The notes under the pieces were generated by a model that ran no database searches, was not told the origin of the DNA, and saw only the letters and a program-made list of their open reading frames with translations. A stretch of DNA of 64,000 nt, taken from assembly GCF_041248615.1 (NCBI RefSeq), contig NZ_CP158426.1; one strand, 5' to 3'. Positions 32,301 through 56,307 of this stretch are shown here, piece by piece (position 1 is the stretch's first letter; each line of letters starts with the position of its first letter). This DNA comes from Escherichia coli. Lineage in GTDB: Bacteria; Pseudomonadota; Gammaproteobacteria; Enterobacterales; Enterobacteriaceae. The translations under genes were made by a program, and so were the position numbers.

Positions 32301-32578
32301 ATTGTGGTGCTTTTTGTGGGAGTCATCCACTTACGCACTTTGTTTTGCTATGCTAGCAGTTAGCTTCTGCTGTAAAACTATTCATGCAGCAAACCTGCAC
32401 TTCACCACAATGGTTAGCATACTTTTCCTGATTAAGTTATTGCCAAATATGCTGGCCATTGTTTCATGTATTGGATCTCCTTACTATTTATTAAAGAGAT
32501 CCAATATTCACCACTCTGTCTGTATCTCCACTCAGGCATCAGCCTTCTTCGTTATCGTATACAGACAAACTATTAATT

Positions 32579-32794
32579 TTAATCAGTAATTATGACATTT
32601 GCTGCTGCAGGACCTTTAGCACCACTCTCTACAGAGAAGGTAACCTTTTGACCTTCAAATAAGGTTCGATAATTATCATTCTGAATCGCAGAAAAATGCA
32701 CAAACACATCTTTACTACCATCAACAGGAGAAATAAAGCCAAAACCTTTATCAGCGTTAAACCATTTTACTAAACCAGTCATTTTATTTGACAT
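32579..32794 (-). CDS. cold shock protein (CspB-like)
   Basis: [21 protein letters not shown]... canonical CspA-family sequence. Confidence 0.8.
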
Positions 32795-33093
32795 TCTACA
32801 TTCCTTAACTTGAGCCTTTCGGCATAAATGGCTTGTATAACAGAAACGACTTCGTACTTAATTGGAGAGACTCAAAGAAGGAATAAGTGAATAACACCTG
32901 AAATGAGAACTGCTTTAGTAAACTACTTCGTATATCGTCTGTTCTTCAAACCGACGCAATCATTAACGCATAGTTGAACATATGAAGCAATGTTTATTTT
33001 AGACATCCAGCCATCTTCAACCCCATCAAAAAACTATAGCTTTCTTCAGGAACGTGTGTATAGTGCGCCAAGTTATCAGTATTAAGGAATTTT

Positions 33094-38968: not shown

Positions 38969-39555
38969 GCGTTAGTTTCTCCACAACCAGAAGCAATCGA
39001 CGCCACGACGCCCGGAGCTGCACACTCACGGGCGTCATTACTTTCTGAAATGCAAAAAATTTTGTAGACAAGTGCTGCATGCTCCTGCAGCTTCGAAATT
39101 GAGAGATACAGCTCGTCGTTAATTGCTGTCTTCTCATGCGGTTCCACTACGCCGTCTTCGATTGCTGAACGAATCTGTTTTGAATAACTGCCGATCTGTT
39201 CAATGACTTCCAGCAGACGCTGGTTAATATCGGCGTTGTCCACATCCTCGACGTCAGGAAGAGACACAAAGACGCCATTTGCAGACTGCGCCACAGCATC
39301 AGCAATGAAGTGAGTGCCACCAGCACGCTGTAAAACCATTGCCCATCCCAGCGGGAAAATCTGATCGCCATCTGCACGAAGGCGGTTGAATAAAGCGTTC
39401 TCTGTTACATCCAGCCAGTCAGCGGCTTCAGCGTAACCCCCCGGCAACGCCGCGATAGTTTTTCTGACAGCTTTCACGTACCACTCAGGCTGTTTTTCTA
39501 TTTTCCAGTGATGCTTACCCACGGCTATCTCCTTAAAACTGTGGTTACTTTTCAT
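38965..39555 (-). CDS. CII-like phage regulatory protein (Phage_CP76/YdaT-like)
   Basis: Position after cro; weak resemblance to the CP76/YdaT-type family; start uncertain. Confidence 0.35.
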
Positions 39556-39793
39556 CTGATGAATCTTTAATCTTTTGAAAAATATCTGGACGTAATTTTT
39601 CTTTTGATATGCCAGTGGTCTTTTCAATGAATATCGAGAGCTTTGCAGGGGGACGCTTTTCTCTGTTCAACCAGTTCCAGACATGTTGTTGCTTTACTAA
39701 ATGACCGCTGCTGGCTGTGAGCTTCCGAGCCAATTCTGATTGACCACCAGCCAGAGCGATTGCCTCCGATAAGGCTAATTGCTCAGGTGTCAT
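39545..39793 (-). CDS. Cro-like HTH regulator
   Basis: 82-aa HTH protein divergent from the cI-like gene. Confidence 0.55.
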   Translation of the reverse strand: MTPEQLALSEAIALAGGQSELARKLTASSGHLVKQQHVWNWLNREKRPPAKLSIFIEKTTGISKEKLRPDIFQKIKDSSDEK

Positions 39794-39928
39794 AGCTTTC
39801 TCCTTTTTTGGTAGTTAAGTTGTTACGAGCTGCAAGAATACAACATTAACAACTTTTACCACAACTTTTAGGTGTTGGAAAGCTAAAACATAAAGTTGTA
39901 ACCTCATCAAAAAAGAGAGGGATATGTT
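39794..39928. promoter_or_regulatory. immunity-region intergenic segment with repeated operator-like half-sites
   Basis: AAGTTGT / ACAACTT at 39818-24, 39850-56, 39862-68, 39894-39900 between divergent cI and cro. Confidence 0.5.
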
Positions 39929-54404: not shown

Positions 54405-54662
<258 letters not shown>

Positions 54663-54711
54663 TCCTGATGGCCATTTTTCCAGCAATTACACCTCCGGCG
54701 ATAATTAACTA

Positions 54712-54739
54712 TTGACGAAAAGCTGAAAACCACTAGAAT
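54712..54739 (+). promoter_or_regulatory. putative promoter of the tRNA-Leu operon
   Basis: TTGACG, 16-bp spacer, TAGAAT, then GC-rich discriminator GCGCCTCC, about 40 bp upstream of the first tRNA. Confidence 0.55.
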
Positions 54740-54780
54740 GCGCCTCCGTGGTAGCAATTCTTTTTAAGAATTGATGGTAT

Positions 54781-54867
54781 GCGAAGGTGGCGGAATTGGT
54801 AGACGCGCTAGCTTCAGGTGTTAGTGTCCTTACGGACGTGGGGGTTCAAGTCCCCCCCCTCGCACCA
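54781..54867 (+). tRNA. leuQ: tRNA-Leu (CAG)
   Basis: 87-nt sequence GCGAAGGTGGCGGAATTGGTAGACGCGCTAGCTTCAGGTG...CTCGCACCA with anticodon loop CTTCAGGT and long variable arm. Confidence 0.9.
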
Positions 54868-54895
54868 AAAACCACGTTGATATTGCTCGCACTGG

Positions 54896-54982
54896 GCGAA
54901 GGTGGCGGAATTGGTAGACGCGCTAGCTTCAGGTGTTAGTGTCCTTACGGACGTGGGGGTTCAAGTCCCCCCCCTCGCACCA
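54896..54982 (+). tRNA. leuP: tRNA-Leu (CAG)
   Basis: Identical second copy. Confidence 0.9.
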
Positions 54983-55016
54983 AACGAGGCGATATCAAAA
55001 AAAGTAAGATGACTGT

Positions 55017-55103
55017 GCGAAGGTGGCGGAATTGGTAGACGCGCTAGCTTCAGGTGTTAGTGTCCTTACGGACGTGGGGGTTCAAGTCCCCCCCCTCGCA
55101 CCA
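55017..55103 (+). tRNA. leuV: tRNA-Leu (CAG)
   Basis: Identical third copy. Confidence 0.9.
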
Positions 55104-55378: not shown

Positions 55379-55390
55379 GGTTTCATCTCT

Positions 55391-55500
55391 TTCATTGATA
55401 ATGATAACTAATATCATATGATAATTTTTATCATTTGCAAGCCAGAGAAATCCCTTGCTATCGGGTAAACCTATCGCTAGGATTAGCAATCATTATCATT
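55391..55500. promoter_or_regulatory. Fur-box-like sequences in the divergent yjjZ/fhuF control region
   Basis: TGATAATGATAACTAATATC (about 55396-55415) and GATTAGCAATCATTATCATT (55481-55500) resemble the Fur consensus GATAATGATAATCATTATC. Confidence 0.5.
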
Positions 55501-55518
55501 TAGATTACTATCCCGATT

Positions 55519-56307
55519 ATGGCCTATCGTTCCGCACCGCTCTATGAAGATGTTATCTGGCGAACGCATCTCCAGCCGCAGGATGCTGGGCTTGCACAAG
55601 CCATACGGGCGACGATCGCCGAACATCGTGAACATTTGCTCGAGTTTATCCGCCTGGATGAACCCGCTCCGCTTAACGCCATGACGCTGGCGCAATGGTC
55701 ATCAACGAATGCGCTAAGTTCTCTACTGGCGGTCTATTCCGATCATATCTATCGCAACCAACCAACGATGATCCGCGAGAACAAACCGCTGATCTCACTA
55801 TGGGCGCAATGGTATATCGGCCTGATGGTGCCACCATTAATGTTGGCGCTGCTGACGCAGGAAAAAGCATTAGATGTGTCGCCGGAACATTTCCACGTTG
55901 AGTTTCACGAAACCGGACGCGCCGCCTGTTTCTGGGTCGATGTGTGTGAAGATAAAAACGCAACACTACATTCGCCGCAGCAGCGAATGGAAACGTTAAT
56001 CAGTCAGGCGCTGGTTCCGGTAGTGCAGGCATTAGAAGCAACGGGAGAGATCAACGGCAAACTTATCTGGAGCAATACCGGTTATTTGATCAACTGGTAT
56101 CTGACTGAGATGAAACAGCTGCTTGGCGAGGCGACGGTTGAATCGCTGCGCCATGCCCTCTTTTTTGAGAAAATGCTCACGAACGGTGAAGATAATCCAC
56201 TCTGGCGTACCGTGGTACTGCGCGACGGCCTGCTGGTGCGCCGCACTTGCTGCCAGCGTTATCGCTTACCGGATGTGCAGCAATGTGGCGATTGTATGCT
56301 GAAATGA
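55519..56307 (+). CDS. fhuF: ferric-siderophore reductase FhuF (2Fe-2S)
   Basis: 262 aa with C-terminal CCQRYRLPDVQQCGDC cluster motif. Confidence 0.9.
   Translation: MAYRSAPLYEDVIWRTHLQPQDAGLAQAIRATIAEHREHLLEFIRLDEPAPLNAMTLAQWSSTNALSSLLAVYSDHIYRNQPTMIRENKPLISLWAQWYIGLMVPPLMLALLTQEKALDVSPEHFHVEFHETGRAACFWVDVCEDKNATLHSPQQRMETLISQALVPVVQALEATGEINGKLIWSNTGYLINWYLTEMKQLLGEATVESLRHALFFEKMLTNGEDNPLWRTVVLRDGLLVRRTCCQRYRLPDVQQCGDCMLK

What the first reader, a model, noticed from the sequence alone, without database searches (positions are those of the whole stretch)
39794..39928. Immunity-switch operator half-sites
Four copies of AAGTTGT/ACAACTT lie between the divergent cI-like and cro-like genes. 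This is the likely operator set and defines the immunity specificity.
Basis: seen in the sequence. Interest (0 to 1): 0.22.

Follow-up and report, generated by a model that had tools for sequence, protein, structure and literature searches.

The report
Prophage repressor operator sites, 434-like
The repeated 7-mers are real and are almost certainly the DNA sites where this E. coli prophage's repressor and Cro protein bind to run its lysis/lysogeny switch; this is an ordinary lambda/434-type switch with an uncharacterised specificity.

Summary
Observation confirmed. AAGTTGT/ACAACTT occurs exactly four times in the 135-bp gap between a Cro-like gene (39545-39793, -) and a cI-like gene (39929-40615, +). 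A fifth, one-mismatch copy (ACAACAT, 39840) is an exact or near-exact copy in relatives.

The 7-mer is one half of a 15-bp dyad, ACAAC-N5-GTTGT. Two copies lie in imperfect dyads (39861-75 and 39885-99, centres 24 bp apart). Three are lone half-sites.

It flanks a strong rightward promoter and looks like an OL/PL counterpart.

Across 13 representative relatives (cI 57-100% identical) the sites are 98-100% conserved, while the spacers are 47-62% conserved.

The cI N-terminal domain is 44% identical to the phage 434 repressor and keeps its Gln-Gln-Ser recognition motif. 434 operators are ACAA-N6-TTGT. Homologues with other recognition helices carry other half-sites.

No deposited phage has this immunity region; 71 of 5426 E. 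coli genomes do. Binding itself is untested.

Verdict: a new member of a known kind, of low to moderate interest. The conserved lone half-sites are the only unusual feature.

The parts
39545..39793 (-). Cro-like gene (82 aa, YdaS family)
   Evidence: Pfam YdaS_toxin E=7.8e-15; phrog_35; weak match to Xfaso 1 Cro 3bd1, E=0.08. The helix VKQQ[QH][VI]WNWL is invariant in 20 distinct homologues.
39794..39928 (.). OR-like intergenic control region
   Evidence: phylogenetic footprint.
39817..39823 (+). S1: lone half-site AAGTTGT, about +5 to +11 of the predicted PR transcript
   Evidence: Exact copy. 100% conserved in 13 representatives while both flanks vary. No conserved partner half.
39835..39840 (-). 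Predicted PR -10 (TATTCT here, TATAAT in relatives)
   Evidence: The scan finds TTGTGA-N18-TATAAT at the homologous place in L002 and L049. The window version falls below the scan threshold.
39840..39846 (+). S2: lone half-site ACAACAT (core ACAAC), abutting the PR -10
   Evidence: One-mismatch copy; ACAACTT or ACAACTA in relatives; core 100% conserved.
39849..39855 (+). S3: lone half-site ACAACTT in the PR spacer
   Evidence: Exact copy; 100% conserved. The expected partner position reads CCACA, which does not match.
39859..39864 (-). Predicted PR -35 (TTGTGG here, TTGTGA in relatives), the complement of the S4 left half
   Evidence: by homology; read from the sequence.
39861..39875 (+). S4: 15-bp imperfect dyad ACAACTTTTAGGTGT (OR2-like), centred about -40 of PR and -41 of PRM
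   Evidence: One mismatch to ACAAC-N5-GTTGT; 98% conserved. The right half varies only as G[G/A]TGT.
39875..39880 (+). Candidate PRM -35 (TTGGAA)
   Evidence: Invariant in relatives. My reading of the sequence; not reported by the scan tool.
39885..39899 (+). S5: 15-bp imperfect dyad AAAACATAAAGTTGT (OR3-like), over the candidate PRM -10
   Evidence: One mismatch to the dyad; 99% conserved.
39897..39902 (+). Candidate PRM -10 (TGTAAC here, TGTAAT in many relatives)
   Evidence: Read. A weak promoter by consensus; inference only.
39924..39930 (+). Possible sixth element ATGTTGT overlapping the cI start codon
   Evidence: GTTGT is kept next to the start codon in most relatives even where the codon context differs. 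Uncertain.
39929..40615 (+). cI-like repressor (228 aa): 434-like HTH N-terminal domain plus S24 autocleavage domain
   Evidence: HTH_3 E=1.4e-15 and Peptidase_S24 E=1.1e-14. 434 repressor 1per E=4.2e-13 with QQS retained; 44% identity over 66 aa. The motifs LSAGNG, GNSLLP and RVKIL are read from the sequence.
40598..41488 (-). BRCT-domain gene lying between cI and the OL-like cluster
   Evidence: Pfam BRCT; annotated in L001; phrog_3989. Absent from L002-type relatives.
41538..41552 (+). OL1: dyad ACCACATAAAGTTGT, abutting the PL -35
   Evidence: It is a perfect ACAACATAAAGTTGT in L076, L077 and L079-L082.
41552..41580 (+). PL-like promoter TTGACA-N17-TAAATT, firing away from cI
   Evidence: Promoter scan, 10 of 12 matches; conserved in relatives.
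41570..41576 (+). Lone half-site ACAACTA abutting the PL -10
   Evidence: conserved.
41581..41595 (+). OL2: dyad ACAACTTAAAGGTGT over the predicted PL start
   Evidence: Relatives carry ACACCTTAAAGTTGT, in which the two halves are swapped, or ...GATGT.

Best explanation
The repeats are operator half-sites of a lambda/434-type bistable switch in an apparently complete E. coli lambdoid prophage.

The recognition unit is a 15-bp dyad, ACAAC-N5-GTTGT, which is the same as ACAACTT-N-AAGTTGT. It is read by the 434-like helix-turn-helix of the cI repressor, whose recognition helix starts Gln-Gln-Ser, and probably also by the YdaS-type Cro, whose helix starts Lys-Gln-Gln.

At OR, the dyad S4 (39861-75) covers the -35 of the leftward promoter PR and sits about 41 bp upstream of the rightward cI promoter PRM. 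There it would repress cro and could activate cI, as lambda and 434 OR2 do. The dyad S5 (39885-99), 24 bp away, covers the PRM -10 and would give OR3-like autorepression or be Cro's first target.

Three conserved lone half-sites (S1, S2, S3) lie over the rest of PR, in roughly the same helical phase. They probably add occupancy through cooperative repressor contacts.

A second set (OL1 and OL2 plus one lone half-site, 41538-95) brackets a strong promoter, PL, for the early-left genes.

Induction would follow RecA-stimulated self-cleavage of cI at its Ala-Gly site.

Shown here: the sites, their conservation, gene identities, homology to 434, and the PL and PR consensus matches. Inferred: who binds where, the PRM position, activation, cooperativity and induction.
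For: - **Clustering beyond chance.** Four exact copies lie in 83 bp, and 16 of 20,000 shuffles do as well.
- **Gene identities.** Established.
- **Dyad matches.** With at most one mismatch to ACAAC-N5-GTTGT the window has 6 hits, and 4 of them are S4, S5, OL1 and OL2. OL1 is a perfect dyad in six distant relatives. OL2 has its two halves swapped in other relatives, as expected for a symmetric site.
- **Footprint.** In 13 representatives with cI 57-100% identical, S1-S3 are 100% conserved, S4 98% and S5 99%, against 47-62% for the spacers.
- **Promoters.** TTGACA-N17-TAAATT is found at OL. TTGTGA-N18-TATAAT is found at the homologous OR position in relatives.
- **434 homology.** The 434 repressor N-terminal domain is 44% identical and keeps Q28, Q29, S30 and R43. 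The 434 record annotates OR1-3 as ACAA-N6-TTGT sites.
- **Covariation.** Helix IKQQSIASIENG goes with 3x ACAG-N6-CTGT. Helix ISQPAIQKMSSG goes with 3x ATAAC-N4-GTTAT.
- **Cro.** Its helix is invariant across 20 divergent homologues.
- **Experimental precedent.** In CP-933P a YdaS protein acts as Cro on operators it shares with the CI analogue, including repeats that lack one half-site (PMC8630535).
Against: - No binding data exist for this system.
- Three of the five conserved OR elements have no recognisable partner half. A simple model of three dyads, as in 434 or lambda, therefore does not fit.
- The 15-bp spacing (ACAA-N7-TTGT) is 1 bp longer than in 434.
- PRM is only a weak consensus match, and the scan tool did not call it.
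- The window's own PR hexamers (TTGTGG and TATTCT) are weaker than those of relatives.
- The Cro-434 Cro similarity is marginal (E=0.029).
- The relatives are not phylogenetically independent, so the conservation figures overstate the number of independent tests.
Confidence: 0.85

Rival explanations
1. Only the two imperfect dyads (S4, S5) are repressor operators. The lone half-sites S1-S3, and the one in OL, are bound preferentially by the YdaS-type Cro or by another factor, so cI and Cro partly use different site sets.
For: The lone sites lack any conserved partner half yet are 100% conserved. The Cro recognition helix is invariant. In CP-933P, direct and inverted repeats were both proposed to be used, and the PaaR2 and YdaS footprints overlap without being identical.
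Against: The lone sites share the same ACAACTT core as the dyad halves, which argues for a single reader. No Cro-specific motif was found. In lambda and 434, cI and Cro share sites.
Confidence: 0.2
2. The repeats are a chance feature of an A+T-rich intergenic region, or simply promoter sequence, and are not protein-binding sites.
For: The window as a whole is not enriched for the 7-mer (11 copies against 8.7 expected). Several elements overlap -35 or -10 hexamers, which are conserved in their own right.
Against: Local clustering is significant. The same motif and order recur at a second promoter. Conservation extends to spacer and transcribed positions that have no promoter role (S1, S3), while true spacers vary. 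Half-site sequence also covaries with the recognition helix in homologues.
Confidence: 0.03
3. The sites serve a different regulator, such as the CII-like YmfL protein, a host factor or LexA, rather than cI and Cro.
For: CII-type activators bind direct repeats, and S2-S3-S4 are direct repeats.
Against: In lambda and 434, CII sites lie at PRE inside or beyond cro, not in OR (annotation). The YdaT-type CII analogue binds TTGATT-N6-AATCAA (PMC9986795, abstract shown). The motif does not resemble an SOS box (CTGT-N8-ACAG, from established knowledge). The ACAA core matches what QQS helices read in 434.
Confidence: 0.04

Closest known systems
Phage 434 immunity region (cI, Cro, OR1-3 and OL1-3)
   Same: Divergent cI and cro genes. 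The repressor N-terminal domain is 44% identical, with Gln-Gln-Ser and the minor-groove Arg retained. Half-sites begin ACAA and the operator centre is A/T-rich. Neighbouring dyads are spaced 21-24 bp apart. The central operator abuts the PRM -35.
   Different: The operator is 15 bp (ACAAC-N5-GTTGT, i.e. ACAA-N7-TTGT) rather than 14 bp. Residue Gln33 is Lys here. OR has only two dyads plus three lone half-sites, not three dyads. The C-terminal S24 domain is not detectably similar to that of 434 by BLAST. Cro belongs to the YdaS family rather than the 434 Cro HTH_3 type.
CP-933P PaaR2/YdaS/YdaT switch of E. coli O157:H7 (PMC8630535)
   Same: A YdaS-family Cro analogue lies divergent from the CI analogue, with a CII analogue downstream. 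The OR holds full palindromes plus repeats that lack one half-site, and there is a separate PL/OL.
   Different: The CI analogue there (PaaR2) is a different protein encoded with a toxin-antitoxin pair. Its repeat consensus (GTTTAGTAA, 18-bp palindromes) is unrelated to ACAACTT. The CII analogue here is YmfL/CP76-type.
Phage lambda OR/OL
   Same: Overall logic: PR and PRM about 81 bp apart by my placement (82 bp in lambda, from memory). The central site lies near -41 of PRM. An OL set lies 1.7 kb away. The repressor carries an S24 self-cleavage domain.
   Different: No sequence similarity in the operators (lambda uses 17-bp sites). cI here has a leader and Shine-Dalgarno sequence. The gene between cI and OL is convergent with cI, not co-transcribed with it.
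Predicted operators of homologous repressors in Stx1 phage SH2026Stx1 / S.Kent 1-2-1 and Hafnia phage Meifeng
   Same: Full-length cI homologues (41-44% identity) lying divergent from a small Cro gene. Their half-sites are NNAAC or ACAG-type dyads spaced 23-25 bp apart.
   Different: They have three clean dyads of 14 bp (ATAAC-N4-GTTAT or ACAG-N6-CTGT) and no lone half-sites. Their recognition helices also differ.

Membership tests
Lambdoid cI/Cro immunity switch (OR/OL operators) | Divergently transcribed repressor and cro genes separated by a short control region | tested here: met
   cro-like 39545-39793 (-) and cI-like 39929-40615 (+), with a 135-bp gap.
Lambdoid cI/Cro immunity switch (OR/OL operators) | Multiple related, dyad-symmetric sites overlapping both divergent promoters | tested here: inconclusive
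   Two 15-bp imperfect dyads and three lone half-sites overlap the predicted PR and PRM (35, 36). The canonical three dyads are not present, and PRM is only inferred.
Lambdoid cI/Cro immunity switch (OR/OL operators) | A second operator set at the early-left promoter on the other side of cI | tested here: met
   OL1, OL2 and the TTGACA-N17-TAAATT promoter at 41538-41595, conserved in relatives.
Lambdoid cI/Cro immunity switch (OR/OL operators) | Repressor with a LexA-like self-cleavage domain (Ala-Gly site, Ser/Lys dyad) | tested here: met
   Peptidase_S24 E=1.1e-14. The motifs LSAGNG, GNSLLP and RVKIL are present in the sequence. Cleavage itself was not tested.
Lambdoid cI/Cro immunity switch (OR/OL operators) | cI and Cro physically bind the sites and confer homoimmunity | not testable with these tools
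   Needs EMSA or footprinting and superinfection assays.
434-type repressor/operator specificity class | N-terminal domain homologous to 434 repressor residues 1-69, with the Gln28-Gln29-Ser30 recognition helix | tested here: met
   1per E=4.2e-13. The alignment shows QQS and the PR(K/F) Arg retained, and Gln33 replaced by Lys.
434-type repressor/operator specificity class | 14-bp operators ACAA-N6-TTGT | tested here: not met
   The sites here are ACAA-N7-TTGT (15 bp) with an obligatory fifth base C. The 434 sites were read from OL657226.1. It works like 434 but is a different immunity type, not imm434.
YdaS-family Cro analogues | Match to the YdaS family model above its curated cut-off, encoded divergent from the repressor and upstream of a CII analogue | tested here: met
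   PF15943 at 54.9 bits against a cut-off of 30. The CII-like gene (PF06892, phrog_101) lies immediately downstream.

The most novel reading that the evidence does not exclude
The strictly conserved lone half-sites are S1, S2 and S3 at OR and one at OL. S1, S2 and the S4 left half are spaced 21 bp apart on one helical face. They may reflect a non-canonical operator grammar. One form would be a repressor oligomer that contacts single half-sites through only one of its two DNA-binding domains. Another would be cI and the unrelated-fold YdaS Cro telling apart dyads from single half-sites that share one core sequence. That would be a different way of ordering site occupancy from the graded-affinity three-dyad scheme of lambda and 434.
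Probability: 0.2. Interest if true: 0.4.

Novelty: new member of a known kind. Interest (0 to 1): 0.22.

Why it matters
It defines the predicted operator sequence and layout for an immunity type found in about 1.3% of complete E. coli genomes and in no deposited phage record. That lets one predict which prophages are homoimmune. It gives a ready set of sites for EMSA or reporter tests. It also adds a natural variant to the 434 recognition series (QQS helix, Gln33 to Lys, a fifth base C and a 1-bp longer spacer), which is useful for studies of helix-turn-helix specificity. It does not change how such switches are understood.

Tried and rejected
- **Pairing the four copies with each other.** The GTTGT-to-ACAAC spacing varies among OR, OL and relatives (2, 4, 5 and 16 bp), so these are not single binding units.
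- **CAAC-N8-GTTG or 434-style 14-bp registers.** These fit only S4.
- **A third dyad at the OR1 position.** None exists in any register: the partner positions of S1, S2 and S3 match 1-3 of 7 bases and are not conserved.
- **The 9-nt perfect inverted repeat AAGTTGTTA/TAACAACTT.** The two extra bases are not conserved in relatives, so the extension is coincidental.
- **A third cluster at 46258-46291.** It lies in the first codons of a small gene, so it is chance.
- **ACAACAT at 41555 in OL.** It is not conserved.
- **The dyad-like site at 42380-94.** Its flanks are equally conserved, so no footprint can be read. It remains undecided.
- **Rfam.** There are no hits in the immunity region.
- **Searches of deposited phages.** Near and distant DNA searches found nothing.
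- **Literature search for the motif.** It returned only unrelated primer coincidences.
- **A promoter for the BRCT gene.** Neither the scan nor my own reading of the - strand at 41489-41700 found one.

Full report
**1. Observation**

The stated range 39794-39928 is exactly the gap between the start of an 82-aa gene on the - strand (39545-39793) and the GTG start of a 228-aa gene on the + strand (39929-40615). AAGTTGT or its complement ACAACTT occurs exactly at 39817, 39849, 39861 and 39893.

The 64-kb window as a whole is not enriched: it has 11 copies against 8.7 expected. The clustering is what is unusual.
- In 20,000 dinucleotide-preserving shuffles of the 135 bp, only 16 contained any 7-mer with four or more non-overlapping copies, counting both strands.
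- Only a handful of other 135-bp windows in the real sequence reach four copies. I did not examine those other windows further.

A fifth copy with one mismatch (ACAACAT, 39840) is ACAACTT or ACAACTA in relatives.

**2. Genes and setting**

- The right-hand gene has HTH_3 and Peptidase_S24 domains and belongs to phrog_4, a transcriptional repressor family.
- The left-hand gene is a YdaS-family protein (PF15943, 54.9 bits; phrog_35). It has a weak match to the Xfaso 1 Cro structure.
- Downstream of it lie a CII-like gene (YmfL/CP76 type), a DUF4222 gene and a replication-initiator-like gene.
- The window carries an apparently complete lambdoid prophage, with large ORFs running from about 2 kb to an integrase-sized ORF at 46485-47693. 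I did not annotate the window's structural genes myself, and the match to L001 is patchy.
- The 1,071-bp immunity region occurs in 71 of 5,426 complete E. coli genomes. Of these, 45 are ≥99% identical, 25 are about 86% and one is about 75%.
- It occurs in no deposited phage record, by near or distant DNA search.

**3.

Two further exact copies (41546, 41581) lie in the next intergenic region, beyond a convergent BRCT-domain gene (40598-41488). The sequence there reads:

ACCACATAAAGTTGT-TGACA...ACAACTAAATT-ACAACTTAAAGGTGT

It contains a near-consensus rightward promoter, TTGACA-N17-TAAATT (41552-80). This is the position and layout expected of OL/PL. It is 1.7 kb from OR.

**4. What the recognition unit is**

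Comparing OR, OL and relatives shows that the 7-mer is one half of a 15-bp dyad, ACAAC-N5-GTTGT (equivalently ACAACTT-N-AAGTTGT).
- Allowing one mismatch, the window has six matches. Four of them are S4 (39861-75, ACAACTTTTAGGTGT), S5 (39885-99, AAAACATAAAGTTGT), OL1 (41538-52) and OL2 (41581-95).
- In six distant relatives OL1 is the perfect dyad ACAACATAAAGTTGT.
- In another group OL2 reads ACACCTTAAAGTTGT. There the strong and weak halves have changed sides, which is what a two-fold symmetric site allows.
- The other three OR copies (S1 39817, S2 39840, S3 39849) and one OL copy (41570) have no partner half. The partner positions match 1-3 of 7 bases and are not conserved.

**5. Phylogenetic footprint**

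A scan of IMG/VR gave 80 loci encoding cI homologues that are 57-100% identical.
- All keep the five OR elements in the same order.
- In 13 representatives aligned without gaps, column identity is 1.00 for S1, S2 and S3, 0.98 for S4 and 0.99 for S5. The spacers at 39800-16, 39824-34 and 39845-48 score 0.47-0.62.
- The relatives are not independent samples. Even so, the contrast between sites and spacers is sharp, and it includes positions such as S1 and S3 that have no promoter role.

**6. Promoters and geometry**

- **PR.** In relatives the scan finds a leftward promoter TTGTGA-N18-TATAAT. The homologous window sequence is TTGTGG (39864-59) and TATTCT (39840-35), which is weaker and below the scan threshold.
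- With a PR start near 39828, the left half of S4 is the -35 hexamer, S3 lies in the spacer, S2 abuts the -10, and S1 lies at about +5 to +11.
- **PRM (inferred).** The best candidate for the cI promoter is the invariant TTGGAA (39875-80), a 16-bp spacer, then TGTAAC (TGTAAT in many relatives). Its start would be near 39909. This is my inference from the sequence.
- On that placement S4 is centred at about -41, the position from which lambda OR2-bound repressor activates PRM (established knowledge). S5 covers the -10. The two starts are 81 bp apart.
- The S4 and S5 centres are 24 bp apart.
- **PL.** OL2 covers the start, a lone half-site abuts the -10, and OL1 abuts the -35.

**7. Who reads the sites**

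- The cI N-terminal domain matches the 434 repressor DNA-binding domain (1per/2or1, E=4e-13; 44% identity).
- The alignment keeps Gln28, Gln29, Ser30 and Arg43 of 434, and replaces Gln33 with Lys.
- The annotated 434 record gives OR1-3 as ACAAACTTTCTTGT, ACAATGTATCTTGT and ACAGTTTTTCTTGT, i.e. ACAA-N6-TTGT.
- In the 434 co-crystal structures, Gln28 and Gln29 read the first bases of ACAA and Arg43 enters the A/T-rich central minor groove (established knowledge).
- The present sites share the ACAA start and an A/T-rich centre. They differ in having an obligatory fifth base C and a spacer 1 bp longer. A contact from Lys35 to that fifth base pair is speculation.

Homologues give a covariation test.

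| Phage | Identity to this cI | Recognition helix | OR sites |
|---|---|---|---|
| This prophage | - | LSQQSVAKIENG | ACAAC-N5-GTTGT (two dyads plus lone halves) |
| 434 | 44% (N-terminal domain) | TTQQSIEQLENG | 3x ACAA-N6-TTGT |
| Hafnia phage Meifeng | 42% | IKQQSIASIENG | 3x ACAG-N6-CTGT |
| Stx1 phage SH2026Stx1 and S.Kent 1-2-1 | 41-44% | ISQPAIQKMSSG | 3x ATAAC-N4-GTTAT |

QQ helices therefore go with ACA-type half-sites, and the QP helix goes with ATA.

The Cro helix VKQQ[QH][VI]WNWL is invariant in 20 distinct Cro homologues whose other regions diverge strongly. It begins with the same VKQQ as 434 Cro, but that pairwise similarity is marginal (E=0.029).

**8. Precedent**

In the cryptic prophage CP-933P, a YdaS protein was shown by EMSA, footprinting and reporters to act as Cro on operators that overlap those of the CI analogue PaaR2.
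- The region there holds two good palindromes and two repeats lacking one half-site.
- It also has a separate PL/OL (PMC8630535).

Conserved lone half-sites in a YdaS-type switch are therefore not unprecedented.

**9. Mechanism proposed**

- In the lysogen, cI dimers occupy S4 and OL2 (and OL1). Helped by the in-phase lone half-sites, they shut PR and PL.
- S4-bound cI may stimulate PRM. At high concentration S5 is filled and PRM is shut.
- After DNA damage, cI cleaves itself at Ala-Gly (LSAGNG, with Ser in GNSLLP and Lys in RVKIL; motifs read from the sequence, cleavage inferred).
- PR then fires, and Cro binds the same cores, S5 first.
- OR and OL, 1.7 kb apart, could loop as they do in lambda. 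This is pure inference.

Confidence that these are cI/Cro operator elements is about 0.85. Confidence in the specific 15-bp dyad unit is about 0.7. The role of the lone half-sites is unknown.

**10. Rivals**

- **Chance or pure promoter sequence.** Disfavoured by the recurrence at OL, the footprint and the covariation.
- **Another regulator (CII-like protein, LexA or a host factor).** Disfavoured by position and motif.
- **Division of labour, with dyads for cI and lone sites for Cro.** This remains open at about 0.2.

**11. Novelty and verdict**

This is an uncharacterised immunity type of a very well understood kind of switch. It works like 434 but is not imm434, because the 14-bp criterion is not met. 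It combines a 434-like DNA-binding domain with a different S24 domain and a YdaS-type Cro.

Classification: new member of a known kind. Interest: low to moderate.

Noticed in passing
window 40598-41488 (-): A BRCT-domain gene (296 aa, phrog_3989) sits between cI and the OL-like cluster, convergent with cI and overlapping its 3' end by 18 bp. This is the slot where lambdoid phages often carry lysogen-expressed exclusion genes. It has a weak PADLOC hit to candidate defence protein PDC-S48 (E=2.4e-7). It is absent from the 86%-identity relatives (L002), and no promoter was found for it.
   Followed up: partly
window 41604-41640 (+), just downstream of the predicted PL start: The sequence CGAACAGGCAGGACGCCCACGAAGTAGCCGC is conserved in most relatives, including ones with cI only 57% identical, although its flanks diverge. 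The leader folds somewhat better than shuffles (z=-1.96). It could be a nut-like or leader RNA element of the early-left transcript. It gave no Rfam hit.
   Followed up: partly
window 42380-42394 (+): A fifth one-mismatch match to the operator dyad (ACAACTTTATGCTGT) lies 0.8 kb right of OL. It sits in a G+C-rich stretch annotated in relatives as a frameshifted hypothetical gene upstream of yfdP. The whole stretch is conserved, so no footprint could be read. It may be a chance match or a distal operator.
   Followed up: partly
window 39835-39864 versus L002 4293-4322: The window's class (45 E. coli genomes) has weaker PR hexamers (TTGTGG/TATTCT) than almost all relatives (TTGTGA/TATAAT), and its S2 is ACAACAT rather than ACAACTT. 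This may reflect a down-tuned early-right promoter.
   Followed up: partly
window 41665-42189: This segment differs from the otherwise 96-99% identical prophage in E. coli SCU-124 (L001), giving a mosaic junction right after OL/PL. It holds two small overlapping ORFs of unknown function, phrog_3195 (+) and phrog_3311 (-).
   Followed up: no
window 32516-32955 (-): An Rfam cspA thermoregulator match (159.6 bits) lies inside the prophage, implying a phage-borne cold-shock protein gene with its 5' UTR.
   Followed up: no
window 54448-55103: Two naRNA4 (REP-type) elements and three tandem tRNA-Leu(CAG) genes mark host chromosome to the right of the prophage integrase at 46485-47693. In L001 a related prophage sits instead next to tRNA-Thr and proA.
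   Followed up: no
window about 55381-55535 and about 5081-5575: Other local 7-mer clusters were found: ATGATAA four times in 135 bp just right of the tRNA-Leu genes, and AGGTGAA up to five times inside the 601-aa ORF at 4233-6038.
   Followed up: no
window 46258-46291 (+): Three ACAACTT-like words (ACAACTT, ACAACTA, CCAACTT) occur in the first codons of a small gene upstream of the integrase (ATGAACAACTTAATGACAACTAAA...). They are judged coincidental.
   Followed up: yes
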